From Dendrosporobacter quercicolus (GTDB lineage: Bacteria > Bacillota > Negativicutes > DSM-1736 > Dendrosporobacteraceae), in the NCBI RefSeq assembly GCF_900104455.1, contig NZ_FNHB01000001.1:1257793-1321792 (forward strand): a stretch of 64,000 bases of DNA, given 5' to 3'. The position numbers and the translations under genes are program-made. Positions 1 to 40,452 of this stretch are shown here, piece by piece (within the stretch, counting starts at the first letter, position 1; the number at the start of each line of letters is the position of its first letter). The notes under the pieces were generated by a model, which worked only from the letters and a program-made list of their open reading frames with translations, was not told the DNA's origin and ran no database searches.

Positions 1-955
1 TAAACACTGCCGGCATAGCATCGCGGGGAAACATGAACCCGGAAAGCAGTATGCTTGGCAAAAATATAAAAAATGACAGCTGCATGGCCTGCATTTGTGT
101 TTTTGTTACAGTGGAAATCAATATGCCCAGCGCCAGGGAAGCAATAATAAAAAAAGAGGTTAACGCATACAGCAGGACAAGGCTTCCCCTGATCGGCAGG
201 TCAAAGGCGGCGATTCCTACCAGAATGGCAACGGTAACCTGTACATATCCCACAATGCTGTACGGGATAATCTTCCCCAGCATAAGCTCCCAGCTTTTCA
301 TCGGCGTAACGATCAATTGCTCCAGCGTCCCCCGTTCGCGTTCCCGAACAATCGCCATTGAGGTAATCATCACCATGGTCATTGTTAAAATAACGCCCGT
401 AATACCCGGAACCATATAAAATGCGGACACAAAATCCCGGTTATACCAGGGCCGGATACGGATCTCATACGGACTTTGTTCGGCATGGCCCGTGTAGCCC
501 TTCATTTTTTGCAGCAATATTTGCTGTGATTTCAATTGGCTGACCAATTGAGCCGCACTAATGGCTGAAGAAGCAGACAGCGAATCGGAAGCATCTACAA
601 TCATTTGTACGGTCGCCGTCCGCCCATGCTTTAGCTGACTGGAAAAATCAGGAGGGATAATCACCCCCACCTTGGCTTTGCCGGAATCAACCGCCTCATT
701 GATCTCCTGGAAATTCCGGGCGGTATAGTGAATATCAAAATACCCGCTGGCGGTTAAAGAATTCAGCAGGTCGCGGCTATCCTGCTGGAGGGACTGGTCA
801 AAAACAATGGTCGGCAAATGCTTAACGTCGGTATTGATTGCATAGCCAAACAGCATAAGCTGTGCGACCGGTACCAGCAGCATCATCGCCAGCGTCAACC
901 GGTCCCGCCGCATTTGCAGGAACTCTTTGATCAGGATTGCCCGCAGCCTTTTCAT
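1..955 (-). CDS. ABC-2 type transporter permease (5' part; runs off the window start)
   Basis: Minus-strand reading from ATG at 955..953 gives MKRLRAILIKEFLQMRRDR..., typical of an ABC-2 permease N-terminus. It overlaps the stop of the upstream ATPase gene by 4 nt (operon-like). The plus-strand ORF 33..419 is a shadow of it. Confidence 0.55.
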   Translation of the reverse strand, partial: MKRLRAILIKEFLQMRRDRLTLAMMLLVPVAQLMLFGYAINTDVKHLPTIVFDQSLQQDSRDLLNSLTASGYFDIHYTARNFQEINEAVDSGKAKVGVIIPPDFSSQLKHGRTATVQMIVDASDSLSASSAISAAQLVSQLKSQQILLQKMKGYTGHAEQSPYEIRIRPWYNRDFVSAFYMVPGITGVILTMTMVMITSMAIVRERERGTLEQLIVTPMKSWELMLGKIIPYSIVGYVQVTVAILVGIAAFDLPIRGSLVLLYALTSFFIIASLALGILISTVTKTQMQAMQLSFFIFLPSILLSGFMFPRDAMPAVF

Positions 956-1857
956 GTTATTTCTCCCTCCCGCTGACACTTTACTAAATAAACGAAAACA
1001 TCTTCCAAACCGGGATTGATTCTTTTCCATTTATAAGAAGATAGCTGCTCGAGCTGGTGCGCTTCCAAAAGAATATGTACGCCGGCCCCGGATGGATAAC
1101 GGTCAAGACAGCAAATCCGCTCCTCTTCCAGTTGCTCCAGTAATTGCATGGGTTCGGCGGTATCAATGCGGACCAATACGCCCGGAATCAGCTTTTTCAA
1201 GCGCGAGGGTGCTTCATTTGCAATTAACTTACCTTCAAACATAAAGCCGATCATATCACAATGTTCAGCTTCATCCATAAAATGAGTGGTAACCATAACG
1301 GTAGTTCCTTGCCCGGCCAGTTGATAAATAATATCCCAAAACAGCCGTCTCGACTTAGGATCTACGCCTCCGGTCGGTTCATCCAAAAAGAGGATTGACG
1401 GACGGTGAATAATCGAACAGCTCAAAGCCAGCCGCTGTTTCCAGCCGCCGGACAAATTGGCGGCCAATTCATGCCGCCGGTCTTTGATCCCGGCCAGAAC
1501 CAGCATATCCTCAATTCTTTCTTTTGCCGTGCTGCGCGGCAGGCTGTACATACCGGCATAAAACTTTAAATTTTCCAAAACCGTCAGATCATCGTAAAGG
1601 CTGAACTTCTGGCTCATGTAGCCAATTTTTTGTTTAATCGCTTCGCTGTCGCGAATAATATCCAGGCCCAATATTTTCCCTTCCCCCGCAGTTGGCTGCA
1701 GCAGACCGCATAGCATCCGGATTGTCGTGGATTTACCCGATCCGTTCGGACCGAGAAAGCCATAGATAGAGCCTTGTTTGATTTTCAGTGAAATATGATT
1801 TACAGCAATAAAGCCGCCAAAACGGCGGAAAAGATTGTTGATTTCCACGGCATACAT
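952..1857 (-). CDS. ABC transporter ATP-binding protein
   Basis: Walker A GPNGSGKST, ABC signature LSGGWKQR, Walker B ILFLDEPT, H-loop. Confidence 0.9.
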   Translation of the reverse strand: MYAVEINNLFRRFGGFIAVNHISLKIKQGSIYGFLGPNGSGKSTTIRMLCGLLQPTAGEGKILGLDIIRDSEAIKQKIGYMSQKFSLYDDLTVLENLKFYAGMYSLPRSTAKERIEDMLVLAGIKDRRHELAANLSGGWKQRLALSCSIIHRPSILFLDEPTGGVDPKSRRLFWDIIYQLAGQGTTVMVTTHFMDEAEHCDMIGFMFEGKLIANEAPSRLKKLIPGVLVRIDTAEPMQLLEQLEEERICCLDRYPSGAGVHILLEAHQLEQLSSYKWKRINPGLEDVFVYLVKCQREGEIT

Positions 1858-2757
1858 TTAAGCCACCTCATTTGCCAATACCACAAACACATCTTCCAGG
1901 GTAGGCTCTATTTCTTCCAGTCCGGTAATTGCAATGCCCGCCGCCGCTAGCGCCTGACGGATCCTGGTTGCCGCATCACCGGCATTGTTTACCGCCAAAT
2001 GATAGGTCTCGCCGAAGCTATTGATGTCCAGAATGGGACAGTCTGCCAAATGCCGTTTTATGTTGCGGTCACTTGCCCGCAATTCCAGCACTTTATAGGG
2101 ATATCTTTGGCGTAAGCCCTGCGGCGAATCACAGGAAACAATGCGCCCTTGATGCATAAACGCAATCCGCGTACAAAACTCCGCTTCATCCATATAGGGA
2201 GTCGAAACAAAAATAGTTGTGCCTTCCTTATTGAGATTATACAGCATTTGCCAAAACTCGCGGCGGGAAACCGGATCGACGCCAGTGGTAGGCTCGTCGA
2301 GCAGAAAGAGGCGGGGCTGGTGCATTAAACCGGCCGCCAGTGCTAATTTTTGCTTCATACCGCCCGATAAATGATCGGCTAAACGATCCTTGAACGGCAG
2401 TATTTTGGTAAATCCTAAAATATGTTCGGCCAATACTTCGATCTGTTCTTTGTTTTGGCCGTACAGCGCCCCAAACAGACGAATGTTTTCCAAAACGGTT
2501 AAGTCGCCATACAGGCTGAATTTTTGCGGAACATAGCCAATATGCTCCCTGGCTGTTTCCAGCTTGTCGGAACCCATAACGCTAACCGTTCCGGAAGTGG
2601 GGGCCAGCAGCCCGGTCAGTATACGCATCATCGTTGTTTTACCGGCGCCGTCCGGTCCCACCAGGCCAAAGATTTCACCAGCTCTCACTTCCAGCGACAC
2701 ATTATTTACCGCCTGTATGGTCTGGTAAGCCTTCGATACATTGCTCAGGGCAATCAT
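1858..2757 (-). CDS. ABC transporter ATP-binding protein (second ATPase)
   Basis: Walker A GPDGAGKTT, signature LSGGMKQK, Walker B LFLLDEPT; adjacent tandem to the other ATPase. Confidence 0.9.
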   Translation of the reverse strand: MIALSNVSKAYQTIQAVNNVSLEVRAGEIFGLVGPDGAGKTTMMRILTGLLAPTSGTVSVMGSDKLETAREHIGYVPQKFSLYGDLTVLENIRLFGALYGQNKEQIEVLAEHILGFTKILPFKDRLADHLSGGMKQKLALAAGLMHQPRLFLLDEPTTGVDPVSRREFWQMLYNLNKEGTTIFVSTPYMDEAEFCTRIAFMHQGRIVSCDSPQGLRQRYPYKVLELRASDRNIKRHLADCPILDINSFGETYHLAVNNAGDAATRIRQALAAAGIAITGLEEIEPTLEDVFVVLANEVA

Positions 2758-3740
2758 TGAATAACCACATCCGCAGGCATTCCCGGTTTGAAAACGCCGT
2801 CAGAATTATCAAGCTTAACTTTAACATAAAACACCAAATTTGCCCGCTCCCGCTGGGTTATGCTTTGGCGGGGGGTAAATTCGGCATTTTGACTAATCTC
2901 TTTAATGGTACCGGCAAACGTCCGGTCGGAATAGGCGTCAATGTGAACATCGACCGGCTGATTTAATTGAATCCGGCCGAGCTGTTCCGAAGAAACATAG
3001 ACTTTGACCCAGCAATCACTTAAGTCGCCAATCGTAGCAACCGCCGAACCTACGCTGAGGTACTCCCCATTTTCAAAATTTTTGGTTAATACCACGCCAT
3101 TCATCGGACTGCTCACAACGGTATCGGCCAAATCCGAACGGGTTACGTCAATCACAGCCCGCAAGCGCTCCACCTCGGCCCGCTGGGCTTCAATGATATC
3201 CGGACGGGTGCCTTCTACGACAAGGCTCTTTCTGGACTGAGCTGCAAGCATGCTGTTTTCGGCAACATCATAACTTGCCTGAACAGCGTCCAGCTGCTGC
3301 GCGGAAATTGCATGATCCTGAAAGAGAACGAGATAACGTTTTAAATCATTTTTCGCTTTATGATAGGTTGCCTGCGCTGATGCCATTTCCGCCTTGGCCT
3401 GTTCAATCTCCTGCGCTCTCGCGCCTTTTTCATAATCCGCCAATTGCAATTCGGCCCTGTGTAAGGCGGCCTCATCAGCCAGCAATTGCGCCTTTAAATC
3501 CTTGCGGCTGATTCTTGCAATCACCTGGCCGGCTTGAACCGTATCACCCGCCTGAATGCTCAGCTCGGACATATAGCCGTTTGTCTTGGGCACAATATCA
3601 GCCAGCGTCACCTCTACCGTACCGGTGGCAGTGATCCCCTTTTCCCCGGGCAAATACAGCTTATAGCCACTGACCCCCGCCAAAACCAATAACACTATGC
3701 CAATTCCCATGATTTTTTTTAACCCGGCCTGATTCTTCAT
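2754..3740 (-). CDS. HlyD-family membrane fusion / secretion protein
   Basis: N-terminal TM anchor (IMGIGIVLLVLAG), long coiled-coil segment, C-terminal beta-barrel region typical of HlyD/EmrA. Start chosen at ATG 3740 with GGAGGGG RBS. Overlaps downstream ATPase start. Confidence 0.8.
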   Translation of the reverse strand: MKNQAGLKKIMGIGIVLLVLAGVSGYKLYLPGEKGITATGTVEVTLADIVPKTNGYMSELSIQAGDTVQAGQVIARISRKDLKAQLLADEAALHRAELQLADYEKGARAQEIEQAKAEMASAQATYHKAKNDLKRYLVLFQDHAISAQQLDAVQASYDVAENSMLAAQSRKSLVVEGTRPDIIEAQRAEVERLRAVIDVTRSDLADTVVSSPMNGVVLTKNFENGEYLSVGSAVATIGDLSDCWVKVYVSSEQLGRIQLNQPVDVHIDAYSDRTFAGTIKEISQNAEFTPRQSITQRERANLVFYVKVKLDNSDGVFKPGMPADVVIQ

Positions 3741-3899
3741 GTTCGCCCCTCCATATTGAATCCATAGAAATCCAAACCTCTGCCGAAAAAACTTCATTCA
3801 GAATGCCCGGAGCATTGGTTTTCTCAACTACAGTATTGCCTGACAAAACGATGGCTGAACCTTACACAAGCATTCATCACCGCAGCTCTTTCATAAATC

Positions 3900-3915
3900 A
3901 ATCAATCGATTGATT
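3900..3915. promoter_or_regulatory. 16-bp perfect palindrome AATCAATCGATTGATT in the HlyD-operon upstream region (candidate operator)
   Basis: Read directly from the sequence; lies between the hydrolase terminator and the HlyD start. Confidence 0.35.
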
Positions 3916-3960
3916 TAATCATATCACTGATTACAAAATTCTGTCAATCATTCCTCCAAT

Positions 3961-4004
3961 AAATAAAAAAGCTGAGCAAGGTTTCTTAATGAAACAGCTC
4001 AGCT
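3961..4004 (-). terminator. Rho-independent terminator ending the PKS operon
   Basis: Minus strand: AGCTGAGC-loop-GCTCAGC followed by TTTTTTATTT, immediately 3' of the hydrolase gene. Confidence 0.6.
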
Positions 4005-4039
4005 TCTATCAGCGCATTGCATAACCGGTATAAAGAAAG

Positions 4040-5113
4040 CTATTTTGCAAATAGCCTGTCAGCAAACCAGTCTACCAGATACCGCTGCACTTCCGTAGCA
4101 TCGAAGGTTGCACAATGATCAAATCCCGGGTAAATTTTTAACGTCTTATCCGTCGACGAAGCTTCCTGGAAAATTCGTTTCGCTCCGGCCACCGGGAAAA
4201 GAGGATCCTGTTCATTGTGGATAATGAGCAGCGGACAAGTTATTTTTTCGGCTATCCCGGCCAGCGTCATTTTAGACAGGAAATGCTCCTTTACATAGTC
4301 TATATCTTTGCCAAAGCGGATAGCCAGCTTCTCTAAGGCGTTGGGATAAACCGAAATCATTTCTTCCGGCTGATAGGAACCGCCGCGACATACGCAGCCG
4401 CCTAACTGACCGGACAAAAATCCTGCCGCACGGGCAACAAGATAGCCGCCGAAACTAGCGCCAAACAGTCCGATTTTTCCACCAATAGCGCTCCGGCTCA
4501 GTAGGTAATCGAAAATTACCTCATACGCTTTTTCATGCTCCACTTCATAGTAGGATTGATTAAAATATAAGGATTCGCCCTGCCCCGGCCCGTCGATGAG
4601 AAAAACGCCCAGCCCCCGCTCAACCAGCGACACCGCTATCGTATGCACTTCTTCCTTAAATCCGGTAAGACCGCCTGTGGCAACAACAACCGGAACAGCT
4701 CCCGGGGCCTGCTTGGGGAGCAGCAGCCAGCCGCTCAGCTTGGCGTTATGATAAGGAAGCGATACTTTTTCAGCCGTCATATTCTCATATAACTGAATGC
4801 CCCGCGAGTAACTGTCCAACAGCTTTCTATAGATTCTGAGCCTTTCATCCGTTATCGCAATAATATCATATTCACCGATCCGGTAGACCGCCGCAGCGTT
4901 GATGAAAAATATTTGCGCCGTCTCCCTGTGTCCGTTTTTTAATTCTTCTTCGGCAGCCGCAAACCATTTATCGCCAAGCTCCTCGCAGACTCTTACATGA
5001 TCCTCACCGCGGCCTACTCTGTCGATAATTCTGGTATAATCGGTGTGGTCAAGACCGCTGGCCATCATTCGATTAAAGTTTTGAAAAACGGGACTTTTTC
5101 TGTTTGCGCTCAT
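4040..5113 (-). CDS. alpha/beta-fold hydrolase (S9/esterase-like); possible product-release or tailoring enzyme
   Basis: GASFGG nucleophile elbow (GxSxG) and later Asp/His region. Start at ATG 5113 with GGAGGA RBS. Last gene of the PKS operon. Confidence 0.7.
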   Translation of the reverse strand: MSANRKSPVFQNFNRMMASGLDHTDYTRIIDRVGRGEDHVRVCEELGDKWFAAAEEELKNGHRETAQIFFINAAAVYRIGEYDIIAITDERLRIYRKLLDSYSRGIQLYENMTAEKVSLPYHNAKLSGWLLLPKQAPGAVPVVVATGGLTGFKEEVHTIAVSLVERGLGVFLIDGPGQGESLYFNQSYYEVEHEKAYEVIFDYLLSRSAIGGKIGLFGASFGGYLVARAAGFLSGQLGGCVCRGGSYQPEEMISVYPNALEKLAIRFGKDIDYVKEHFLSKMTLAGIAEKITCPLLIIHNEQDPLFPVAGAKRIFQEASSTDKTLKIYPGFDHCATFDATEVQRYLVDWFADRLFAK

Positions 5114-5153
5114 TATTATATCCTCCTTTTTGGCCCTGCACCTGCTGTGCATA

Positions 5154-6101
5154 TTATACCTTCTCCAAATATGCCTTTACCGTCTGCATCGTAATCATAC
5201 TGTTTTTCTCAATCGCTTGTTGAACAAGCGTCAAAGCCTCTTCCGGTTTGATCCCGCCCCATAGTTTTCGGACGCCCTCTTCCGCAAGAGCGATCCTGTG
5301 CCAGGATTCAAGATATACTCCATTCTTTTTATCGGTAATAACCCATCGACCTTCATGCCGTTGCAGAGCCGGCGGCAACGACGGCTGAAAATATTCAATC
5401 ATCCGATTGGCGTAGCCATGACGGATCGACCTCATGACCTCCAACTTTTCCCCTACGCCTACAACCGTCATCTCAAATTCCTGATTATGTCCGTCTTCAT
5501 AGAGAAGTTCAATTTTTTTACAATGCGGCAGTACCTGAGGCCATTCCTGCACCTGATACAGCAGGTCAAAGACTTGTCTGGCCGTTGACCTGATTTCAAT
5601 TCCCGACGAAAATACCGCCTCCGTCCGGCCTAAATGCTCGCTTTCCAAGAGCTTTTTTATGGCCTTCAATTCTTTGGTACTGTTATCTTCAATGGTGCGG
5701 TGCATAAACTGTATTGCATCTGTTGCGTTTTGAACCTCATCGACAACTCCTGCGACAGTGTCCTTAGGTTCAAACCTGTGTTCCAGCACCAGCAAGGCTC
5801 CTTGATTAAGGGTAAACATGTTCCAGCGGCCCTGCATGTACTTTACTAGCGGGCTTGGCTTGGACTGCTCAAAATCAATGCGATAAATATCCGGATACAA
5901 CCTTCGTTCTGACTGCCAGCTAAATTCCGTCTCATTGGACTCGGCCGTTATTGCGATAACCTGAAGATTGTCGCGCTCAGATATAATTTCGGCTTTTTTA
6001 CATGGAGGAAAATACTCAGGCCATTTTGCTACATTGGCGCATATATCGTAAACTCTGTCTACAGATGCGCTGATTTCGATCGAATGAAGGGTGATTTCCA
6101 T
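5154..6101 (-). CDS. di-domain SRPBCC aromatase/cyclase (ARO/CYC, ActVII/Gris-ORF4-like)
   Basis: Two tandem Polyketide_cyc2-like halves, each with a W-P-x-(Y/V)-(F/L)-P-x-C-K motif (WPEYFPPCKK and WPQVLPHCKK); 315 aa fits di-domain ARO/CYC. Confidence 0.7.
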   Translation of the reverse strand: MEITLHSIEISASVDRVYDICANVAKWPEYFPPCKKAEIISERDNLQVIAITAESNETEFSWQSERRLYPDIYRIDFEQSKPSPLVKYMQGRWNMFTLNQGALLVLEHRFEPKDTVAGVVDEVQNATDAIQFMHRTIEDNSTKELKAIKKLLESEHLGRTEAVFSSGIEIRSTARQVFDLLYQVQEWPQVLPHCKKIELLYEDGHNQEFEMTVVGVGEKLEVMRSIRHGYANRMIEYFQPSLPPALQRHEGRWVITDKKNGVYLESWHRIALAEEGVRKLWGGIKPEEALTLVQQAIEKNSMITMQTVKAYLEKV

Positions 6102-6143
6102 AAATTCAATACCTCCGCTTACAATTTTTTCTCTTCCCGCCCG

Positions 6144-6653
6144 CTAACTTTCAAGTGTAATTTTGCTCCGGCTGATCTGCTTGCCATCCATGAACATGTG
6201 ACTGAACAGAAAGATATTCACTCCTCCGCAAACAATTTCCAAAATTTGAAAAGCAAAAAAACTCAGATCAAACTGCGCATTTTGGGCAAAATAGTCCAGG
6301 ATAAAAGCCAATGGCGTCAGGAAAACAATCCCGTTGACACCAATCCATTTCATGCGCCTGGTTTTTGCCTCAATCAAGGGCTGACCGGGATAATAAGCCG
6401 CCAGCTTCCTCCCGGAAGCCACCAGCAAGGGCATACAAATTAGTACTATGGACAAACCATAAACAATCAATTTTTTTACTCCGGCAATTAATGCCGGTTC
6501 GCCAATCAGTTCTGCTGTTACGCTGGACAGCAGAAAGGTGCAAATAGTCAACAGCGCAATGACGGCTGTTATTTGATGAAATACTCTCACAGCAAACACT
6601 CCTTTTTTCCCTGACGGCAGCCGGGCAGGACAATCGATAGCAGAAGCCTGCAC
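6144..6653 (-). CDS. integral membrane protein (4-5 predicted TM helices), unknown function
   Basis: Hydrophobic stretches along the whole 169 aa; embedded in the PKS operon. Confidence 0.5.
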   Translation of the reverse strand: MQASAIDCPARLPSGKKGVFAVRVFHQITAVIALLTICTFLLSSVTAELIGEPALIAGVKKLIVYGLSIVLICMPLLVASGRKLAAYYPGQPLIEAKTRRMKWIGVNGIVFLTPLAFILDYFAQNAQFDLSFFAFQILEIVCGGVNIFLFSHMFMDGKQISRSKITLES

Positions 6654-6683
6654 AAGCGTTTATAGCGCTGCTTGCGGCTGGCA

Positions 6684-7137
6684 CTAAGGAAGAGCATAGG
6701 TAATTGTAACATTGGCAATGGCCGTCCCCCGGGGATCTTCAGCCGCAGCTTTTAGCTGCCTGCCGCTAAAGACCGACTCGCCCCGGATACCTGCAAAACG
6801 GCCGGTTCCTTTGACCAGTGTTCCGCATCCTTTATTGACAGGCAGTTTTCCATTTTGCCACGGCAGGGCGGACTGCCAGGAAATTATTATCAAGGATTTG
6901 TCTTCAAACTCCAGCCTGGTATACCCATTTGCCGTTCCCTCCCGGCCATTGGGGATATCGAAAGTTCCTACAAAAGAGTATTGCGCAGTTTCGCCATCCA
7001 TAAATTTCGCTGCTCCCTCCCGTTTTTGCACCCCCATCACATGCCCTTCCTCATCCTCGACCGGAAGCCATTCGGCAGAGACAATATAATTTATAACTTC
7101 GAAGCTCTTTACCTGTTGCCGCTTTTCTTTTCCCATC
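6684..7137 (-). CDS. hypothetical protein (about 150 aa) within PKS operon
   Basis: ORF with ATG at 7137 preceded by GGAGTGAG; no family recognised from sequence alone. Confidence 0.45.
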
Positions 7138-7164
7138 CGGATCTCACTCCTTTTACAAGCTGTT

Positions 7165-7932
7165 TTAAAAGCTGCCCAGCCCTCCGCAGACATTGATCGC
7201 CTGGACGGTAATACCCCTGGCCTTGTCCGAGGCCAAAAAAGAGACCATTGCGGCGACTTCATCAGGAACGATATATCTGCCGATAGGGATCATGCTTTCA
7301 AATTTCTTTTTCACCTCTTCCGGCGGAATGTTCAGCAGTTTACTGCTGGCTTCTCTGACTTTCTGCGCCATATCGCTTTCAACATAGCCAGGACATACGG
7401 CATTGACTGTTATTCCGGTTTTAGCCAGTTCCTTTCCCAGCGCCTTCGAAAACGCAATAACCCCCGCCTTAGAAGCGCTATAGGCCGAGCCAAAAGGCAC
7501 CCCCTGTTTGCCACCGGTGGACGCGATGTTGATAATCGCGCCGCCGGCGGTTAAATTGCCTTGGTTCAATACGGCTTTTGATACATAGTAAACACTGTTT
7601 AAGTTGGTGTTGATGATATCATGCCAAAGCGTATCGTCCATTTCCGCTGTTTTGCCGCCGCCGCTTCGCCCGGCGCAGTTAACCAGTACATCAATTTTCG
7701 CCACGTCTTTCATTACCTGGCCCATCATCGCCTCTACCGCTTCCTGTCTGGAAATATCACAGACAAACCAGGCCGAATGCCCGTCAAAACCAGCTATTTC
7801 CTTAGCCGCCGCTTCCAGTTGCGCTGCCGTTCTTGCCACCAAAACAACCTGAAAGCCGTCTTTCGCCAATTGTAAAGCGATTGATTTACCAATGCCTCTG
7901 CCCGCTCCTGTAACCAATGCTGTTTTTTTCAC
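7165..7932 (-). CDS. SDR-family ketoreductase (ActIII/FabG-like polyketide C9 ketoreductase candidate)
   Basis: TGAGRGIGKSIA Rossmann motif, NCAG, catalytic YSASK, 255 aa. Confidence 0.85.
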   Translation of the reverse strand: MKKTALVTGAGRGIGKSIALQLAKDGFQVVLVARTAAQLEAAAKEIAGFDGHSAWFVCDISRQEAVEAMMGQVMKDVAKIDVLVNCAGRSGGGKTAEMDDTLWHDIINTNLNSVYYVSKAVLNQGNLTAGGAIINIASTGGKQGVPFGSAYSASKAGVIAFSKALGKELAKTGITVNAVCPGYVESDMAQKVREASSKLLNIPPEEVKKKFESMIPIGRYIVPDEVAAMVSFLASDKARGITVQAINVCGGLGSF

Positions 7933-7977
7933 TGTCTCAAGCTCCTTTCCAAATCCTCTATTAACCAGTGAACCCGC

Positions 7978-8244
7978 TTACTTGGCAATATCCTGACGGA
8001 TAATTTCGAAACTGACCAAATTCTTCACATCCGGGCAGCAAGTTTCTATCTTGTCCGGATTATCCAGAGGCAAAACTCCGTCCCAGGCCAATGCCGCGAC
8101 AATCGGAAATATCGTGTGATAAGCCGCGCCGCAGAGTCCCCCTGAATCAGCGGGCGTAACTTTAAATATATCGCCTGTTTTATGCCCGGCCTTGCAGGTG
8201 CCGGTATTCGAAGTTACTTTGACCACAATCTCTTTTGTACTCAT
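7978..8244 (-). CDS. small Cys-rich conserved hypothetical protein (about 88 aa)
   Basis: ATG at 8244 with AGGAGG RBS; several Cys (TGTCKAGH..., CGAAYH..., CCPD). Confidence 0.5.
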   Translation of the reverse strand: MSTKEIVVKVTSNTGTCKAGHKTGDIFKVTPADSGGLCGAAYHTIFPIVAALAWDGVLPLDNPDKIETCCPDVKNLVSFEIIRQDIAK

Positions 8245-8266
8245 TCTCGCTCCTCCTAAACTCGAG

Positions 8267-9098
8267 TTATTCAAGCGCAACTACCCTGCACCAGCTTGCA
8301 TCGCTGCCAGTTAATTTAATCGGAAAGCAGCATACCTTAAACCCTGTCGGGTTTTGTATTTTATCTAAGTTGGCGAGACGTTCTATATGGCAATATTCTT
8401 TTTTTCGGCCTAAAAAATGAGCCGGCCATAAGTGCTTTACATCCTTGTCCCGCAGGTAATTGCCGATCATTCGCTGAAAAGGCGGATCAAACCCAAAACT
8501 GTCAATGCCGATAATCTTTACGCCACAGTCAATAAAATATTCTGTGGCTTCGGCGCTCACGCCCCGAAAACTGGCGAAATATTGCGGCGTACCTGCATAT
8601 TGATCGCCCCCGGTTTTCAGCAATACAATATCAAACGGTTGAATTTGATAATTTATTGCCTTAAGTTTTGCAATAACCTCCGCTTTTGAAACCGGCTCCT
8701 TTGCCGTCAAAGCTCCAAAATCCAACAATACACCATTTCCAAAGCACCATTCCAACGGAATATCTGTTATCGTTTTGGCTTTTTTTCCGGCAGAATCTGT
8801 ATCGCCGAAATGATAGGGAGCATCAAGATGCGTGCCTGTGTGGGTAGTAAGTTTATAAGTAAATAATGATAAGCCTTTTTCTTCCGGGAAATGCTTGTGG
8901 CTCAGTCCCCGGCCGACAACGTGTTTGAAACGTTCCACCAAGGTTAAGAACCAGTTGGTACCACGCATATAAATCAAATTTTCCCCCAGCAGGTCGGCGC
9001 CTTCTTTATGACCCACAATTTCACATTTTACCGGATTAGGCTCCCAGTCATTTACATCAATTGCGACACTTAAATCAACGATGCGGCAAGTATTCATA
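8267..9098 (-). CDS. cyclase-family protein (PF04199-like, kynurenine-formamidase fold)
   Basis: Signature HTGTHLDAPYHF (HxGTHxDxPxH) and downstream acidic residues; ATG at 9098. Confidence 0.65.
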
Positions 9099-9123
9099 GC
9101 TTTGTCCCCTGTCCTTTGTTTCT

Positions 9124-10377
9124 TTACTGCATTGCAGCGACTGACCCGATGACCAGGCTTGCACAAATTCCGCCATTGCCGCGTCCATTAATCATTACAT
9201 TATTAATTGTCCGTTCTCTTTGCGTTTCATGGACAATATTCAATTCAATTAAGGGATCGGCTACTTCATAGTTAAGTGTCGGTAAAACGGTATTATTTTC
9301 TATGGACATAGCTGCCCAAAATGCATCCAAAGCCCCGGCTGCTCCGTATAAATTGCCGGTCATCGTTTTAGGGACAGTAACCGGAACTGTGGAATACACC
9401 TTGTCCAGGCTTTTCTTAACCGCCCGGTACTCCCATAAATCGCCTAGCTCTGTTCCCAAACCGTCAGCAATGATTAAATCAATCTGCTGCTGGCTTAAAT
9501 CCGCATCAGCCAACGCCTCAGTCATCGTATAATCAAGCCCCAATTCCTGACCGGAAAGAAAACGGGGATGGCAGGCGACTGTGCTATCGCTAAACCCTTT
9601 GATCTCTCCGTATATTTTTGCTTCTCGCCGTTTTGCATGTTCGTATTCTTCCAGTACCAAAATCGCTGCTCCCTCGCCGGGAACCCATCCGTTTCTTCGC
9701 CGGTCAAAGGGCTGATAGACGCCACTTTCCGCAATTCTGTGCCGGGGTTCTTCAATGCCTTCCGTGCAAAGTGCGGCAAACGTAAAGGGATTGATTAACC
9801 CTTCAGTACCGCCCGCCAAAATAATATCCGCCCGTCCCTGCAAAACGGCTCTTGCCCCATAGCCAATCGCGGTCAGTCCGCTGGCTCTTCCGGAATCAAA
9901 GGTTTTACTGTGACCTCTCAGCTTGTTTTTGATCGTAATTTCACCTTGCGGCGCTGCCGGGAACCATGCCGTTCCTACAAAAGGGCTGAAATCGTCAATT
10001 CCATTTGTATGCAGCAGCCTCAGCTGAGGATCGTTAAAAGTCCATCCGCCAAAGCAATTTCCGATATAGACGCCGATTCGATCCGCATTCATTTGATTCA
10101 GCTTGATATCACTATCTTTGATCGCCAAATCGCTGGCGGCAATTGCGTATTTTGTGAATACGTCCAATTTGTGGGCTTGACGGGAAGAAATAAAATCCGT
10201 TTCCGCAAATCCCCTTACTTCACCGGCCATTTGCGCAGGCCAGTCCTGTACAGCAAATTTAGTGATCTGCTGTATATAATTCTTTCCGGCCACAGAATTT
10301 TCCCATACCTGATTTTTGCCAATGCCATTCGGCGCAATAACACCCAAACCGGTAATGACTACTTGTTTCGCGTTCAT
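9124..10377 (-). CDS. ketosynthase beta / chain-length factor (KS-like, no active-site Cys)
   Basis: Thiolase-fold KS N-terminus VVITGLGVIAPNGIG. Where KS-alpha has TGCAAGLDA, this protein has SGRASGLTA (Cys replaced). Start overlaps the KS-alpha stop (translational coupling). Confidence 0.75.
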   Translation of the reverse strand: MNAKQVVITGLGVIAPNGIGKNQVWENSVAGKNYIQQITKFAVQDWPAQMAGEVRGFAETDFISSRQAHKLDVFTKYAIAASDLAIKDSDIKLNQMNADRIGVYIGNCFGGWTFNDPQLRLLHTNGIDDFSPFVGTAWFPAAPQGEITIKNKLRGHSKTFDSGRASGLTAIGYGARAVLQGRADIILAGGTEGLINPFTFAALCTEGIEEPRHRIAESGVYQPFDRRRNGWVPGEGAAILVLEEYEHAKRREAKIYGEIKGFSDSTVACHPRFLSGQELGLDYTMTEALADADLSQQQIDLIIADGLGTELGDLWEYRAVKKSLDKVYSTVPVTVPKTMTGNLYGAAGALDAFWAAMSIENNTVLPTLNYEVADPLIELNIVHETQRERTINNVMINGRGNGGICASLVIGSVAAMQ

Positions 10378-11705
10378 TGTAGGCCTCCCCGGGGGGCTTC
10401 GGTTCCAAGCACCAGCGCGCTGTGTATTCCAGAAAAGCCGCTGGCATCTTTTAGAATCAAGTTCAGATTTTTAGGTTTTACGCTTTGGTTCGGTACATAA
10501 TTCAGATCGCACCGGCTGTCAGGATACTCGTAATTAATCGTCGGATGAATTTCTTTGTTGACCAGTGATTGCACACAAGCAACAACTTCCATTGCACTTG
10601 CCGCCGCCAAAGCATGCCCATGCATAGATTTCAAGGAACTGACAGGCACCTCATAGGCTCTTTTCCCCAGCACGGCTTTATATGCAGCTGTTCCATTAAC
10701 ATCATTCTGCGGAGTTGAACTGCCATGTGAATTAATGTAATCAATCTGTTCGGGCCTTACTCCCGCATCCGCCAAAGCAATTTCCAGCGCCCTTGCCAGA
10801 TCTTCTCCGTCCGGCAGCAGTTCGGTCATATGGTAGGCATTACAAGTTGAACCATATCCATAGATCTCAGCTAAAATTGGCGCTCTTCTTTTTATAGCGT
10901 GTTCCCGTTCTTCCAAAACAAGAATTCCGCCTCCTTCACCTAAAACAAAGCCGTCACGTTCTTTGTCAAAGGGCCGTGAGGCTTTTTCAGGCGTACTGTT
11001 TCTTTTGGCTGATACAGCGCCCAAAATATCAAAAGCGGCAAGCGTTACCGGACATAGAGGGGCCTCTGCTGCTCCAGTAATCATGACGTCCGCATATCCG
11101 CTTCTGATCAAATCGAAACTAAAGCCGATCGCATCCAGACCGGCGGCGCAACCTGTCGGTAAGGTCGGACACGCGCCTCTCAGTTTAAATTCAGCGGCCA
11201 CTTCAAGAGACGCCGTACTATAAGTAAATGCCTGATATAACGCCTTGCTTGTCCAAGCTACGTCAAACGCCTCGGTGCACTGTTCCGTCCTCTTTAAAAA
11301 TTCCTGTTCCATGGAGGTTGTACCGGTTATTGCATTGGCGATGCTGACGCCCGCCCGGCGGCAGTCAAGTTCATTCCTGTCAAGTTTGGAATCCTGTATG
11401 GCCATTTTAGCCGCAGCCAGGGCAAATTGAGCATAGCGGTCTAATCTCGCCAGCTGATTTTCTTTTAATTTAAATTCCCGCGGCTCAAAATCTTCAACAG
11501 CCGCACATATTTTCGATTTAAATTGCTCGACCGGAAATTGCTCAATTCCTTTCACACCTGATTTCCCTCTGACACAATTTTTCCAGAATACTTCCTTGCC
11601 AATGCCAATTGGGGAAATAATTCCTACCCCGGTGATAACAACCCGTTTGTTCTCAGCCACCCTTTTTTTCATACGCCGTCTTTCCTCCTCTGCTGACGAT
11701 ACCAT
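10374..11705 (-). CDS. ketosynthase alpha (type II PKS KS, FabF-like)
   Basis: VVITGVGIISPIGIG, active-site TGCAAGLDA, His motifs NSHGSST and KSMHGHALAAAS. The true start may be the internal ATG 11673 (MKKRV) with GAGGAGGA RBS. Confidence 0.85.
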   Translation of the reverse strand: MVSSAEEERRRMKKRVAENKRVVITGVGIISPIGIGKEVFWKNCVRGKSGVKGIEQFPVEQFKSKICAAVEDFEPREFKLKENQLARLDRYAQFALAAAKMAIQDSKLDRNELDCRRAGVSIANAITGTTSMEQEFLKRTEQCTEAFDVAWTSKALYQAFTYSTASLEVAAEFKLRGACPTLPTGCAAGLDAIGFSFDLIRSGYADVMITGAAEAPLCPVTLAAFDILGAVSAKRNSTPEKASRPFDKERDGFVLGEGGGILVLEEREHAIKRRAPILAEIYGYGSTCNAYHMTELLPDGEDLARALEIALADAGVRPEQIDYINSHGSSTPQNDVNGTAAYKAVLGKRAYEVPVSSLKSMHGHALAAASAMEVVACVQSLVNKEIHPTINYEYPDSRCDLNYVPNQSVKPKNLNLILKDASGFSGIHSALVLGTEAPRGGLQ

Positions 11706-11729
11706 TGCCCGGCTGTTACATACGATTGT

Positions 11730-11966
11730 CTAAGATGCCCGGCTCTTCTCTGACAGATGGATCAGTAGGTTTTCGATTGTATCAGCTTCCTTAACTTCGC
11801 AGAATTCCAAATCGCAGTGAAATGTTTTTCTTAAATCACGGCAGAGCTTTACCATTTCAATTGAATCAACGCCTATCTCGTTCGTCAAAGATGTAGCAGC
11901 CGTCATTTCACGACTTGATATGCCCAGAGATTTTGCAATTGCCTCAATTAATGTGTTTTCGTCCAT
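11730..11966 (-). CDS. acyl carrier protein
   Basis: 78 aa, GVDSIEMV phosphopantetheine-attachment motif (DSx); first gene of the operon. Confidence 0.8.
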   Translation of the reverse strand: MDENTLIEAIAKSLGISSREMTAATSLTNEIGVDSIEMVKLCRDLRKTFHCDLEFCEVKEADTIENLLIHLSEKSRAS

Positions 11967-12402: not shown

Positions 12403-12431
12403 TGACATATATTGTAAAATAATATATTATT
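12403..12431 (+). promoter_or_regulatory. sigma-A-like promoter (TTGACA-N16-TATTAT) overlapped by a 24-bp perfect palindrome TGTAAAATAATATATTATTTTACA (12413..12436)
   Basis: Read from the sequence; sits about 70 nt upstream of the histidine-kinase start and in the divergent region facing the PKS operon. Confidence 0.45.
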
Positions 12432-12500
12432 TTACATGAATTAAGCTTTTCATTGCCTAAACAGCATGCTACCGTAAATATTCTGAAGGGAGGTAAAAAA

Positions 12501-13511
12501 GTGCTGCAGGGTAATGTCTTAATGATCTTTATTAATTCTTTTCTGGAAGCTATGCTGATCTTAATGATTGCGATATGTCCCTTTCCTCGGTTAGCCGAGA
12601 ACCCGGAAACGATACAAAGCAATATATTTATTCCGGTGTTCGGATTGTTGTTTTCACAAAGCGTAATCATTGTTTTTTTCTTTTGTCAGTATATTGTTCG
12701 ATTTAGAGAACTTTTTGCGCCTGATTATTTCTATTTATATTTCATCATAGTAAACATTCTTTTACCTGTTTTCACTATAACTGTGATTAACCGGCTGGTC
12801 CTTCAACTGAAACATCAAATTGAGTCACAAACCCAACTGGATACGCTGGGAAAAGTAAAAGAATTACTGCTTACCATGCGGGAACAACGCCACAATTTCA
12901 GGCAGGAACTGCAGGTCGTTTATGGATTGTTGGAAGTAGAAGAGTTCCAGGCGGCGCAAGACTATTTGAAAAAGAGCGTCTCCGAAGTAACGGCTGCCTC
13001 GGAAATGATAAAAACCGATAACCTGGGGATTACAGCCCTGTTGTACGCCAAGACCGGGTTAGCAGATGCGCGAAAAATCAATTTGCACGTTACGGTTCAG
13101 ACCAGCCTGCGAAAATTGTCTATGGACACAAGAGATATCAACCTGGTTCTCGGCAATTTAATTGACAATGCTCTTGAGGCAGCACAAGAATGCTCTGCCC
13201 CGGAGCGGATAGTTGAGGTTTTCATTCTGCAGAACGCTAAAGATTATATTTTCGAAGTTAGAAATCTCGGAGCAACCATTTTGCCCGACATATCCGGTAA
13301 AATATTCCAGGCGGGATTTTCGACTAAAGGAAAAGAAAGAGGTTTGGGGCTTTACAGCATAAAAAAACTTGTGTATAAATATCACGGCAATATCCAGGTT
13401 ACCAGTGACCGTAACGGCACTTGCTTTAGGATAACGATACCGGCGGAACAAGCCGGACTGCAAGCCGGTACCGTAAGTCATATCAAATCGGGAAAGAAAA
13501 GCAGTTATTGA
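12501..13511 (+). CDS. AgrC/LytS-like membrane sensor histidine kinase (HATPase_c, HPK10 type)
   Basis: GTG 12501 after GGGAGG RBS; 5-6 N-terminal TM helices; C-terminal GHKL motifs LGNLIDNALEA and GLGLYSIKKLVYKYHG. Confidence 0.75.
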   Translation: MLQGNVLMIFINSFLEAMLILMIAICPFPRLAENPETIQSNIFIPVFGLLFSQSVIIVFFFCQYIVRFRELFAPDYFYLYFIIVNILLPVFTITVINRLVLQLKHQIESQTQLDTLGKVKELLLTMREQRHNFRQELQVVYGLLEVEEFQAAQDYLKKSVSEVTAASEMIKTDNLGITALLYAKTGLADARKINLHVTVQTSLRKLSMDTRDINLVLGNLIDNALEAAQECSAPERIVEVFILQNAKDYIFEVRNLGATILPDISGKIFQAGFSTKGKERGLGLYSIKKLVYKYHGNIQVTSDRNGTCFRITIPAEQAGLQAGTVSHIKSGKKSSY

Positions 13512-13761: not shown

Positions 13762-14511
13762 ATGTTAAAAGTCATTATTTCTGAAGATGATTCTGCAATG
13801 CGGCTCCTTTTAACACGTGTAATAGAAAGAATTGACGGCGTAGAGATTATTGGCAAGACCGAAAATGGCAGACAGTTGATTGAGCTTGTTGAACAATTGA
13901 ATCCGGAGGCTGTGTTTTTAGATATTAATATGCCGGGGATCAATGGCGTCGAAGCATCGAAAGAAATTTTCGCCTTCAATCCCAGGATATTTCTCATCTT
14001 TGTTACTGCTTATGATTGTTTTACCCATGAGGCTTTTGATGTCTATGCCTTTGATTACATTGTGAAGCCGTTTGATCTGAACCGGCTGCATCGAACAATA
14101 AAGCGGATAAAGGAATTGAAGGAAGAGCGGGAAAAAATTGAATTTTTAAAACGGGCGGAAACGCTGTATGGCCGAAAAAATCCCAAGCTTAAAATTTCAA
14201 CCAATGAGAAAAGCGTCTTTGTCAATGTGCATGATATCATCTTAATTACCCGCAACGAACGTAAAACCACAATCTATACGACCGATGGCCTGACTATTCA
14301 GACCAACGATCCTTTGCACTTGTTAGAACAACGCTTGGAAAAATACAAGTTTTTCCGCTGTCACAAAGGGTTTATCATCAATTCCGATATGGTGTTGGAA
14401 CTGGCCCCCTGGGGAGCCAAAACCTACTTAGTCAAGCTGTCCAACACAACCGAAACCGCGCTGATGACATTAGAACACGCCAGAGAATTTCAAAAACGGT
14501 ACTGCCTGTAG
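13762..14511 (+). CDS. LytTR-family response regulator (AgrA-like)
   Basis: ATG 13762 with AAGAAGG RBS; receiver domain (ISEDD...LDINMPG...), C-terminal LytTR DNA-binding domain. Its 3' 306 nt lie inside direct repeat copy 1. Confidence 0.85.
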   Translation: MLKVIISEDDSAMRLLLTRVIERIDGVEIIGKTENGRQLIELVEQLNPEAVFLDINMPGINGVEASKEIFAFNPRIFLIFVTAYDCFTHEAFDVYAFDYIVKPFDLNRLHRTIKRIKELKEEREKIEFLKRAETLYGRKNPKLKISTNEKSVFVNVHDIILITRNERKTTIYTTDGLTIQTNDPLHLLEQRLEKYKFFRCHKGFIINSDMVLELAPWGAKTYLVKLSNTTETALMTLEHAREFQKRYCL

Positions 14512-14679
14512 CGACGACCGTCGAATCTCCCTCACCTAAGCAGGTCATCGGACGCTGGAAAAGCCCGGGATTCTGTCGGCCAAGTGAGCCTACATAAAAA
14601 AACAAGTCTGTCCAAAACCATATGGTATGGTTTTGGACAGACTTGTTTTTCGAACCGGAAACCGGGTATTACAGCAGCC
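14201..14679. repeat. direct repeat copy 1 (about 479 bp): 3' end of LytTR regulator gene plus its terminator
   Basis: Near-identical to 37630..38106. The only differences are cacctaag vs cactaaag and a 7-A vs 5-A run. Confidence 0.95.
14606..14650 (+). terminator. Rho-independent terminator of the LytTR regulator gene
   Basis: Perfect 17-bp stem GTCTGTCCAAAACCATA/TGGTATGGTTTTGGACAGAC followed by TTGTTTTT. Confidence 0.8.
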
Positions 14680-14721
14680 AAAAAATCATCTAATTCCCCA
14701 GTAAGGATTGCAAAACAATCA

Positions 14722-37530: not shown

Positions 37531-37629
37531 TGCTCTGAATTTATTGCAGGACAATTTAATATTTCTTAATAGCACAAACCCTCATTACAACAAAAAAACT
37601 GCCTAGTGCATAGCACTAAGAATGTTCAT

Positions 37630-38106: not shown

Positions 38107-38127
38107 ACAGGCATCAGCTCCTTCTTG

Positions 38128-39342: not shown

Positions 39343-39363
39343 ACGTATCCAAACCTTTCCTGA

Positions 39364-40413: not shown

Positions 40414-40452
40414 ATACCATACAAGTCGTTAACTAATTTGACACGCTCACCG

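What the first reader, a model, noticed from the sequence alone, without database searches (positions are those of the whole stretch)
4040..11966. Aromatic type II polyketide synthase operon in a Firmicutes-like background
Gene order on the minus strand is ACP, KS-alpha, KS-beta/CLF, PF04199 cyclase, small Cys-rich protein, SDR ketoreductase, 150-aa unknown, membrane protein, di-domain ARO/CYC, alpha/beta hydrolase, terminator. Then a separate HlyD plus 2 ATPases plus ABC-2 permease exporter follows. A minimal PKS plus C9-KR plus di-domain ARO/CYC is the actinorhodin-type logic for a reduced aromatic polyketide. Type II PKSs are rare outside actinomycetes (clostrubin-type clusters in clostridia being the best known exception), so this is likely an uncharacterised product. 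No MCAT, PPTase or oxygenases are seen, which suggests an anaerobe-style minimal pathway.
Basis: partly seen in the sequence, partly recalled or inferred. Interest (0 to 1): 0.8.

Follow-up and report, generated by a model that had tools for sequence, protein, structure and literature searches.

The report
Known dendrubin polyketide gene cluster

Summary
On the minus strand, 11966 to 4040, lie ACP, KS-alpha, CLF, a PF04199 cyclase, an 88-aa Cys-rich protein, an actKR-type ketoreductase, a 150-aa beta-barrel protein, a 4-helix membrane protein, a di-domain ARO/CYC and an alpha/beta hydrolase. A hairpin with a T-run follows, then an exporter with its own promoter.

It is not uncharacterised. All ten proteins, the exporter proteins and the divergent two-component regulators are exact full-length matches to deposited Dendrosporobacter quercicolus proteins named DenA-J, DenK-M and DenW/X. 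The window is therefore that genome and the cluster is the den locus of Ishida et al. 2020 (PMC7693217). That paper credits it with dendrubins A-F, which are anthrone/anthraquinone-type compounds derived from a nonaketide.

The cluster-product link there rests on 13C-acetate labelling only; knockout and heterologous expression failed.

What I add:
- DenJ belongs to the AntI/DHPON-hydrolase/Ayg1 family of C-C-cleaving hydrolases.
- The DenI-type membrane domain occurs elsewhere fused to FAD/NAD reductase modules, which suggests a redox role.
- DenH is an allene-oxide-cyclase/dirigent-like barrel.
- The same ten genes recur in shuffled order in Methylomusa and related metagenomic contigs.

Novelty: already known. 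Interest is low.

The parts
11730..11966 (-). denC, acyl carrier protein (78 aa). Carries the GVDSIE phosphopantetheine-attachment motif.
   Evidence: PP-binding 2.4e-10. Exact match to D. quercicolus DenC, NSL47506.1.
10374..11672 (-). denA, KS-alpha (432 aa). The Cys-His-His triad is intact (TGCAAG, NAYHMT, SHGSST).
   Evidence: Pfam. Best PDB matches: AntD 6smo_B 1.8e-111, actinorhodin KS 1tqy_A 1e-100, then FabF 2e-96. Alignment. Exact match to DenA, NSL47505.1.
9124..10377 (-). denB, chain-length factor / KS-beta (417 aa). The active-site Cys is replaced by Arg (DSGRASG) and the second His by Asp. Translationally coupled to denA by a 4-nt overlap.
   Evidence: Exact match to DenB, NSL47504.1.
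8267..9097 (-). denD, PF04199 'cyclase' family protein (276 aa). The den paper calls it OxyN-type; probable second/third-ring cyclase.
   Evidence: PF04199 3.1e-30. Exact match to DenD. Architecture described in PMC7693217.
7978..8244 (-). denG, 88-aa Cys-rich TIGR04076-family protein. Function unknown.
   Evidence: TIGR04076 1.8e-14, above its cutoff. Conserved at 68-78% in three related clusters. Exact match to DenG. No PDB relative.
7165..7932 (-). denE, SDR ketoreductase of the actinorhodin/hedamycin C9-KR type (255 aa). Ser and a YxxxK motif are present.
   Evidence: PDB: HedKR 3sju 7e-71 and actKR 1x7g 2e-70, against the best FabG at 1.4e-47. Exact match to DenE.
6684..7136 (-). denH, 150-aa soluble eight-stranded beta-barrel of the allene-oxide-cyclase / dirigent / DUF3224 kind. 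Function unknown.
   Evidence: No Pfam match. AF2 model with pLDDT 92.6. Foldseek on PDB: 2q03 1.2e-5, dirigent 6ooc 6e-4, PloI4, AOC; TM about 0.5-0.6. Only 7 homologues in 5.8 billion clusters. Exact match to DenH.
6144..6590 (-). denI, 148-aa membrane protein modelled as a four-helix bundle, with a nearly invariant His5 (at least 90% of 76 aligned family members). Probable redox module.
   Evidence: Weak DUF2269 match in 3 of 5 aligned sequences (the window protein among them), best E = 3.8e-4; the MAG-cluster L088 sequence gives a weak UPF0093 match instead. 407 representatives at E <= 1e-3. Four of these carry C-terminal FAD_binding + NAD_binding_1 domains and one a CDGSH domain. AF2 pLDDT 95.3. 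Exact match to DenI.
5154..6101 (-). denF, di-domain SRPBCC aromatase/cyclase (315 aa).
   Evidence: Polyketide_cyc 1.2e-20, two stretches. PDB: BexL 4xrw 1.3e-27 over the full length, ZhuI 1.3e-15, StfQ 2.4e-15. Exact match to DenF.
4040..5113 (-). denJ, alpha/beta hydrolase of the AntI / DHPON-hydrolase / Ayg1 C-C-cleaving family (357 aa). Has the GASFGG nucleophile elbow and aligned Asp and His.
   Evidence: Single sequence: 2jbw 2e-18, AntI 9e-8. Family profile: AntI 6hxa 2.2e-44, 2jbw 2.9e-34, Yg1-like 2.9e-22, with the catalytic residues aligned. Exact match to DenJ.
3961..4006 (-). Terminator-like hairpin plus T-run after denJ.
   Evidence: Sequence and fold. Not listed by the rule-based scan.
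3894..3947 (-). Promoter-like site for the exporter (TTGACA-18-TATGAT, 11 of 12 matches, with a TG). A palindrome, TAAATCAATC-N4-GATTGATTTA, overlaps its -10 region.
2754..3740 (-). denK, HlyD-type membrane-fusion / periplasmic adaptor protein (328 aa).
   Evidence: HlyD_D23 3e-23. Exact match to DenK, NSL47496.1.
1858..2757 (-). denL, ABC ATPase with a DrrA-type C-terminal domain.
   Evidence: ABC_tran 2e-32, DrrA1-3_C 1.3e-8. Exact match to DenL.
952..1857 (-). denM, second ABC ATPase.
   Evidence: ABC_tran 1.8e-32. Exact match to DenM.
1..955 (-). ABC-2 permease gene, cut off by the start of the window.
   Evidence: Open frame of 318 codons. The corresponding gene in the 98%-identical contig L082 is 374 aa with ABC2_membrane families.
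12501..13511 (+). denW, sensor histidine kinase (SpoOB-type helical domain plus GHKL). Transcribed divergently from denC.
   Evidence: Pfam. Exact match to DenW, NSL47507.1.
13762..14511 (+). denX, LytTR-family response regulator.
   Evidence: Response_reg 8.5e-23, LytTR 4.3e-17. Exact match to DenX, NSL47508.1.

Best explanation
The region is the den biosynthetic gene cluster of Dendrosporobacter quercicolus (Negativicutes). It is a type II (iterative, dissociated) aromatic polyketide synthase pathway credited with making the dendrubins.

Shown here:
- Gene content, the catalytic residues of the enzymes, and exact identity of the proteins to DenA-M and DenW/X.

Taken from the literature (13C-acetate labelling, PMC7693217):
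- The core is a nonaketide that loses its terminal carboxyl carbon and forms a 1,8-dihydroxyanthrone. A second acyl chain on the molecule does not come from this PKS.

Inferred order of events:
1. Holo-DenC is made by a PPTase encoded elsewhere and is malonylated by the fatty-acid MCAT. No MCAT or PPTase gene is in the cluster, although related clusters carry an adjacent MCAT.
2. The DenA/DenB heterodimer builds the C18 poly-beta-ketone chain on DenC.
3. DenE reduces the C9 carbonyl.
4. DenF closes and aromatises the first ring (C7-C12).
5. DenD helps to close the later rings.
6. DenJ, an AntI-family Ser-His-Asp enzyme, most likely takes the intermediate off the ACP. Dendrubin's third ring is an aldol closure, not the Dieckmann closure that AntI performs. 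DenJ therefore probably hydrolyses the thioester, giving an arylacetic acid that decarboxylates to the C-1 methyl group. It probably does not trim a C2 unit.
7. DenG, DenH and DenI are conserved accessory proteins. DenI is probably a membrane electron-transfer protein.
8. DenK-M plus the ABC-2 permease export the product.
9. DenW/DenX regulate the cluster.
For: Identity:
- All 18 proteins looked up are exact full-length matches to D. quercicolus entries. Fifteen of them carry Den names: DenA-J (NSL47497-47506), DenK-M and DenW/X. The other three (an HTH protein, the amidase and GMP synthase) simply tie the rest of the window to the same genome.
- The paper describes denABC, the cyclases denD and denF, the oxidoreductase denE, plus regulators and transporters. 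It reports no methyltransferase or oxygenase genes and names Methylomusa as the closest orthologous cluster.

Enzymology:
- KS-alpha has the Cys-His-His triad. The CLF has Arg and Asp at the corresponding positions.
- KS-alpha is nearest to AntD and actinorhodin KS.
- The KR matches actKR/HedKR at 1e-70, against 1e-47 for the best FabG.
- The ARO/CYC matches BexL at 1e-27.
- DenJ matches AntI at 2e-44 with a family profile, with the catalytic residues aligned.

The ten genes form a unit:
- They recur at 48-81% identity, in shuffled order, in Methylomusa anaerophila (L081) and two metagenomic contigs (L083, L086). Each of those clusters has the HlyD/ABC exporter next to it.

Tree:
- In a neighbour-joining tree, DenA groups with KS-alpha proteins of myxobacteria and Streptomyces. 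It sits apart from solitary FabF-type ketosynthases. DenB groups with the Arg-type CLFs.
Against: - The link between cluster and product has never been tested genetically. The authors report that knockouts and heterologous expression failed.
- The roles I give DenD, DenG, DenH, DenI and DenJ are inferences from homology and context.
- By raw score, DenB is closer to FabF (246 bits) than to actinorhodin CLF (208 bits) or AntE (149 bits).
- I could not read the paper's supplementary tables. I therefore do not know what the authors themselves proposed for DenG-J.
Confidence: 0.9

Rival explanations
1. The cluster is den, but dendrubins are not its product, or not its only product. It would make a different aromatic polyketide, for example an AntI-trimmed anthraquinone like AQ-256, and the dendrubin core would come from elsewhere or from additional unlinked enzymes.
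For: - No knockout or heterologous expression exists.
- The gene set matches the ant gene set (KR, PF04199 cyclase, KS, CLF, ACP, ARO/CYC and an AntI-like hydrolase). The ant product is a trimmed heptaketide.
Against: - The paper describes a single type II PKS locus, den, in the genome.
- 13C-acetate labelling fits a type II nonaketide.
- The oxygen pattern of dendrubin (no oxygen at the position corresponding to C9, first ring C7-C12) fits the combination of KR and di-domain ARO/CYC found here.
Confidence: 0.08
2. It is a fatty-acid-synthase-like or aryl-polyene-type KS/CLF system rather than an aromatic polyketide synthase.
For: - NCBIfam's best models for both KS proteins are FabF models: 431 and 334 bits on the fabF equivalog TIGR03150, both below its 493.75-bit cutoff.
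- The best PDB hits for DenB are FabF proteins.
Against: - The best PDB hits for KS-alpha are AntD and actinorhodin KS.
- The partner KS lacks the catalytic Cys.
- The KR is of the actKR type, far ahead of FabG.
- A BexL-like di-domain ARO/CYC is present.
- No dehydratase, enoyl reductase, second ACP, ammonia lyase or other aryl-polyene hallmark was found in the operon.
- The organism makes labelled aromatic polyketides.
Confidence: 0.01

Closest known systems
den cluster of Dendrosporobacter quercicolus (dendrubins A-F; Ishida et al. 2020, Chem Eur J 26:13147, PMC7693217)
   Same: It is the same locus. DenA-M and DenW/X are exact protein matches, and three further exact matches (amidase, HTH protein, GMP synthase) tie other parts of the window to the same genome.
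   Different: Nothing differs at the protein level. A 98%-identical contig from run ERR1288716 (L082) lacks the 32-kb insertion found next to denX in this window.
ant cluster of Photorhabdus (antA-I; anthraquinone AQ-256; PDB 6SMO and 6HXA; PMC6601290, PMC11165489)
   Same: The core gene set is the same: KR, PF04199-type cyclase, KS-alpha, CLF, ACP, di-domain ARO/CYC and an AntI-family hydrolase. KS-alpha's best solved relative is AntD. The DenJ family profile hits AntI at 2e-44.
   Different: - den has no PPTase (AntB) and no CoA ligase (AntG).
- den adds DenG, DenH and DenI, an ABC exporter and a LytTR two-component system.
- ant makes an octaketide that AntI trims to a heptaketide by retro-Claisen cleavage and then closes by a Dieckmann reaction.
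- den is assigned a nonaketide whose third ring is an aldol closure followed by decarboxylation.
Orthologous unnamed clusters in Methylomusa anaerophila, Pelosinus sp. IPA-1 and Negativicutes-like metagenomic contigs
   Same: Comparing the window with L081, L083 and L086, all ten genes are conserved at 48-81% identity and the HlyD/ABC exporter is adjacent. For Pelosinus sp. IPA-1 only the KS-alpha match (78%) was examined.
   Different: - The gene order is shuffled.
- These clusters have a TetR regulator ahead of the exporter where den has none. den instead has a divergent HK/LytTR pair upstream of the ACP gene.
- Two of them carry an adjacent MCAT, and one of those also an AMP-ligase. Both genes are absent here.
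Actinorhodin-type reduced type II PKS of Streptomyces (minimal PKS + actKR + actVII ARO/CYC + actIV)
   Same: The logic is the same: minimal PKS, C9 ketoreduction, then C7-C12 cyclisation by a di-domain ARO/CYC. The KR matches actKR at 2e-70.
   Different: - The CLF has Arg, not the Gln of actinomycete CLFs, at the former Cys position.
- KS-alpha and CLF sit in the early-branching non-actinomycete clade (PMC7693217).
- There are no tailoring oxygenases.

Membership tests
den (dendrubin) biosynthetic gene cluster of D. quercicolus | Proteins identical to the deposited DenA-J, DenK-M and DenW/X | tested here: met
   Exact full-length sequence look-ups returned NSL47494-47508 and the matching SDL entries, with Den names.
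den (dendrubin) biosynthetic gene cluster of D. quercicolus | The cluster actually produces dendrubins | not testable with these tools
   The literature offers only 13C labelling and genome mining. Knockout and heterologous expression failed.
Aromatic type II PKS (minimal PKS) | KS-alpha with a Cys-His-His triad | tested here: met
   TGCAAG, NAYHMT and SHGSST motifs.
Aromatic type II PKS (minimal PKS) | An adjacent, translationally coupled KS homologue that lacks the catalytic Cys (the CLF) | tested here: met
   Cys is replaced by Arg and the second His by Asp. The genes overlap by 4 nt at 10374-10377.
Aromatic type II PKS (minimal PKS) | A dedicated ACP with the DSx serine motif | tested here: met
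   PP-binding 2.4e-10 and a GVDSIE motif.
Aromatic type II PKS (minimal PKS) | KS-alpha groups with type II PKS ketosynthases, not with FabF/FabB | tested here: met
   PDB ranking: AntD, then actinorhodin KS, then FabF. In a neighbour-joining tree it groups with Pyxidicoccus, Sorangium and Streptomyces KS-alpha, apart from solitary FabF-type KS. The tree has no bootstrap support.
C9 ketoreductase (actKR / HedKR type) | Closer to actKR/HedKR than to FabG, with the Ser-Tyr-Lys catalytic residues | tested here: met
   7e-71 and 2e-70 against 1.4e-47 for FabG. A YSASK motif is present. The regiospecificity of reduction was not tested.
Di-domain ARO/CYC of reducing type II PKSs (BexL / actVII type) | Two SRPBCC domains with a full-length match to a known ARO/CYC | tested here: met
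   BexL 4xrw at 1.3e-27 over residues 5-312. StfQ also matches over the full length.
AntI-type polyketide-trimming hydrolase | Sequence membership in the AntI / DHPON-hydrolase / Ayg1 alpha/beta-hydrolase family, including the N-terminal helical domain | tested here: met
   Profile hit to AntI 6hxa at 2.2e-44, covering profile positions 34-353 and AntI residues 74-390.
AntI-type polyketide-trimming hydrolase | Catalytic Ser245, Asp326 and His355 conserved | tested here: met
   GasfGGY aligns with GISFGGY, eqDplF with ELDDIF, and ldHv with eaHV. The residue roles come from PMC6601290.
AntI-type polyketide-trimming hydrolase | Catalyses retro-Claisen trimming followed by Dieckmann closure of the third ring | not testable with these tools
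   The published dendrubin structure has an aldol-closed third ring and a decarboxylated terminus. That argues against an identical last step, but this is an inference.
Aryl-polyene / FAS-like KS-CLF systems | Dehydratases, further ACPs and polyene-specific accessory genes in the operon | tested here: not met
   None was found among the ten operon genes.

The most novel reading that the evidence does not exclude
The four conserved but functionally unassigned genes, denG to denJ, may encode the tailoring chemistry that the 2020 paper could not locate in the cluster.

- DenJ is an AntI-family enzyme, and AntI forms a C-C bond from a Ser-bound ester. DenJ would be the 'missing' Friedel-Crafts-like C-acyltransferase that installs the acetyl, propionyl or butyryl side chain. 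Alternatively it would act as a dedicated release-and-decarboxylation enzyme.
- DenI is a four-helix membrane protein whose relatives are fused to FAD/NAD reductase or CDGSH modules. Perhaps together with the Cys-rich DenG, it would carry out an oxygen-independent redox step between anthrone and anthraquinone in this strict anaerobe.
- DenH, a dirigent/AOC-like barrel, would guide cyclisation or the coupling that forms the bis-anthrone.
Probability: 0.2. Interest if true: 0.45.

Novelty: already known. Interest (0 to 1): 0.15.

Why it matters
As a discovery it matters little. The cluster, the organism and the products were published in 2020 and the genes are named in GenBank.

It remains useful as a case in three ways:
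- It is one of the few type II PKS loci from an anaerobe with assigned products, and those products are active against Mycobacterium tuberculosis.
- The assignment still lacks genetic proof.
- Four conserved genes have no assigned function in the paper's main text.

Recognising DenJ as an AntI-family enzyme and DenI as a likely redox module gives concrete, testable candidates for steps the authors said they could not find in the cluster: the second acyl chain, and anthrone oxidation without oxygenase genes.

Tried and rejected
It returned nothing above 52% identity.
- The exact look-up of the 443-aa ORF form of KS-alpha found nothing, because the deposited protein starts at M12.
- In the homology tables the source organism was hidden. 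The 90%-cluster representatives came from an unnamed Logan assembly. I therefore first took the window for a relative of Methylomusa. The DenH search and the exact look-ups corrected this.
- Guessing that P0011 or P0032 might be DenA led to unrelated ant-like clusters in MAGs.
- The supplementary tables of the den paper are not held.
- Rfam found nothing in the window.
- The PDB searches with the DenG and DenI family profiles found nothing.
- The DenI link to DUF2269/UPF0093 is weak (best E = 3.8e-4) and I do not rely on it.
- The FAS-like and aryl-polyene readings were considered and rejected; see the rival explanations.

Full report
**1. Observation**

The ORF map matches the reported span exactly. 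Ten consecutive minus-strand ORFs lie between 11966 and 4040.

Pfam and NCBIfam identify them as follows:
- an ACP;
- two full-length beta-ketoacyl synthases;
- a PF04199 cyclase;
- a TIGR04076 Cys-rich 88-aa protein;
- an SDR;
- two proteins with no family match (150 aa soluble, 148 aa membrane);
- a two-domain SRPBCC polyketide cyclase;
- an alpha/beta hydrolase.

Directly after the hydrolase stop there is a GC-containing hairpin followed by TTTTTTATTT. After that comes a near-consensus promoter-like site, then a HlyD adaptor and two ABC ATPases. An open frame then runs off the window start. In a 98%-identical contig that frame is a 374-aa ABC-2 permease.

**2. What the enzymes are**

- KS-alpha keeps the Cys-His-His triad. 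Its partner has Arg in place of the Cys and Asp in place of the second His, and the two genes overlap by 4 nt. That is a KS-alpha/CLF pair.
- Against solved structures, KS-alpha scores best with AntD of the Photorhabdus anthraquinone PKS (1.8e-111). Actinorhodin KS follows (1e-100), and both are ahead of every FabF.
- The CLF scores slightly better with FabF than with actinorhodin CLF. This fits its published placement in an early-branching clade.
- The SDR matches the polyketide C9 ketoreductases HedKR and actKR at about 1e-70, against 1e-47 for the best FabG.
- The SRPBCC protein matches the di-domain ARO/CYC BexL over its whole length (1.3e-27), and also ZhuI and StfQ.
- In a simple neighbour-joining tree, KS-alpha groups with KS-alpha of Pyxidicoccus, Sorangium and Streptomyces. 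It sits apart from solitary FabF-type synthases of Firmicutes. The CLF groups with other Arg-type CLFs.

**3. Where it comes from**

KS-alpha has 76-84% identical relatives in Methylomusa anaerophila, Pelosinus sp. IPA-1 and several metagenomic contigs. The paper on Dendrosporobacter quercicolus names Methylomusa as the closest orthologue of its den cluster.

The search with the 150-aa protein then returned a 100% match named DenH from D. quercicolus. Exact-sequence look-ups settled the matter:
- All ten operon proteins are identical from first to last residue to deposited D. quercicolus proteins. These are named DenC, DenA, DenB, DenD, DenG, DenE, DenH, DenI, DenF and DenJ.
- The adaptor and the two ATPases are DenK, DenL and DenM. 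The divergent histidine kinase and LytTR regulator are DenW and DenX.
- An amidase, an HTH protein and GMP synthase from elsewhere in the window also match that genome exactly.

The window is D. quercicolus DNA, and the finding is the den cluster itself.

**4. What is known about it**

Ishida et al. 2020 (PMC7693217) found den by genome mining and placed DenB with AntE and PcyF in an 'ancestral' C16/C18 clade. They isolated dendrubins A-F from the red cultures. These are 1,8-dihydroxyanthrone/anthraquinone-type compounds, and dendrubins A and B are active against M. tuberculosis and other mycobacteria.

From 13C-acetate labelling they proposed:
- a nonaketide that undergoes three cyclodehydrations and loses its terminal carboxyl;
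- a second acyl side chain (acetyl, propionyl or butyryl) that does not come from the PKS.

They state that the cluster holds no methyltransferase or oxidase/oxygenase genes and that no homologue of the known C-acyltransferase exists in the genome. They also state that all attempts at knockout and heterologous expression failed. The link between cluster and product is therefore well argued but not proven genetically. I found no later paper that closes this gap.

**5. Mechanism**

The steps are listed under the best explanation. The published structure agrees with the gene set:
- In the paper's numbering, C-8 carries no oxygen. It corresponds to C9 of the chain, as expected after reduction by DenE.
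- The first ring is C7-C12 in chain numbering, as expected for a BexL-type ARO/CYC.

These correspondences are my reading of the published structure, not a tool result.

**6. What I can add**

(a) DenJ is not a generic hydrolase.
- Alone it hits DHPON hydrolase (2e-18), fungal Yg1-type enzymes and AntI.
- A profile built from five family members hits AntI at 2.2e-44 over nearly the full length. The nucleophile elbow, the Asp and the His are all aligned.
- AntI takes the bicyclic intermediate off the ACP, trims it by a retro-Claisen reaction and closes the third ring by a Dieckmann reaction from a Ser-bound ester (PMC6601290, PMC11165489).
- The third ring of dendrubin is an aldol product. DenJ therefore cannot simply copy AntI. 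Release from the ACP followed by decarboxylation is the simplest role. Intermolecular C-acylation, the 'missing' acyltransferase, is a more speculative one.

(b) DenI belongs to a family of about 400 representative sequences, most of them stand-alone proteins of about 150 aa.
- Four members carry a C-terminal FNR-type FAD/NAD(P)H module and one carries a CDGSH iron-sulfur domain. This points to an electron-transfer function.
- The model is a confident four-helix bundle, but the structure comparison was uninformative.

(c) DenH is predicted with high confidence to be an eight-stranded barrel. It resembles DUF3224 proteins, dirigent proteins, allene oxide cyclase and PloI4-type pericyclases. Only seven homologues exist in the large database. 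The four whose contigs I retrieved lie in den-type clusters.

(d) The ten genes are conserved at 48-81% identity, in different orders, in Methylomusa and two other contigs, always next to the HlyD/ABC exporter. This supports treating them as one functional unit.

(e) More distant ant-like clusters in MAGs keep the hydrolase and a DenI-like membrane protein, and add an AntG-like ligase.

**7. Verdict**

The functional interpretation is correct, and the claim of an uncharacterised product is wrong. Novelty: already known. Interest is low, with modest residual value in the unassigned den genes and the unproven cluster-product link.

Noticed in passing
window 14554-46746: About 32 kb next to denX is absent from a 98%-identical contig (L082, run ERR1288716), which joins 14553 to 46747 with about 138 bp. 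The insert starts with a phage-tail and lysis block. This holds an amidase, a holin/bacteriocin-like 116-aa protein, two tail-spike/fibre proteins of 1124 and 950 aa, a 1658-aa lambda-J-like central tail fibre, minor tail proteins and a sigma-like factor. I saw no capsid, portal or terminase gene among the large ORFs, so it may be a prophage remnant or a tailocin.
   Followed up: partly
window 14196-14680 and 37625-38107: A 485-bp direct repeat (99% identical) brackets the phage-tail block. It contains the 3' end of the LytTR regulator gene denX. The second copy corresponds to a deposited 94-aa truncated LytTR protein (NSL47531). This looks like the duplication left by integration into the 3' end of denX.
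   Followed up: partly
window 38128-46618: Between the second repeat copy and the host HTH gene lies an island of possibly defence- or RNA-repair-related genes. It holds a PolyA_pol/HD nucleotidyltransferase, a WYL-domain protein, an SPFH/Band-7 protein and two RlaP-family (RNA repair pathway DNA polymerase beta family) proteins. It too is absent from contig L082.
   Followed up: no
window 9124-10377 (DenB), residue in the DSGRASG motif: The CLF position that is Gln in actinomycete CLFs is Arg here. It is also Arg in 84 of the 120 best CLF relatives, including myxobacterial ones such as Pyxidicoccus fallax. The one Streptomyces CLF I extracted has Gln. This is a feature of the clade, not of this locus.
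   Followed up: partly
window 12413-12436: A perfect 24-bp palindrome, TGTAAAATAATA/TATTATTTTACA, lies in the divergent denW-denC intergenic region. It overlaps promoter-like sites on both strands and could be an operator.
   Followed up: no
window 3894-3917: The palindrome TAAATCAATC-N4-GATTGATTTA overlaps the -10 region of the exporter (denK) promoter. The orthologous clusters have a TetR gene just upstream of the exporter, but this window has none at that position.
   Followed up: no
L083 5301-6212; L086 6124-9532; L088 6943-8484: Orthologous or related clusters carry genes missing from den. An MCAT (Acyl_transf_1) sits next to the ACP gene in L083 and L086. An AMP-binding ligase, like AntG, is present in L086 and L088.
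   Followed up: no
window 55498-59323: These genes look like a futalosine-type menaquinone pathway: a PF02621 VitK2_biosynth protein, two radical-SAM CofH/MqnC-like proteins and a nucleoside phosphorylase-family protein. guaA lies at 53905-55446. This is ordinary host metabolism.
   Followed up: no
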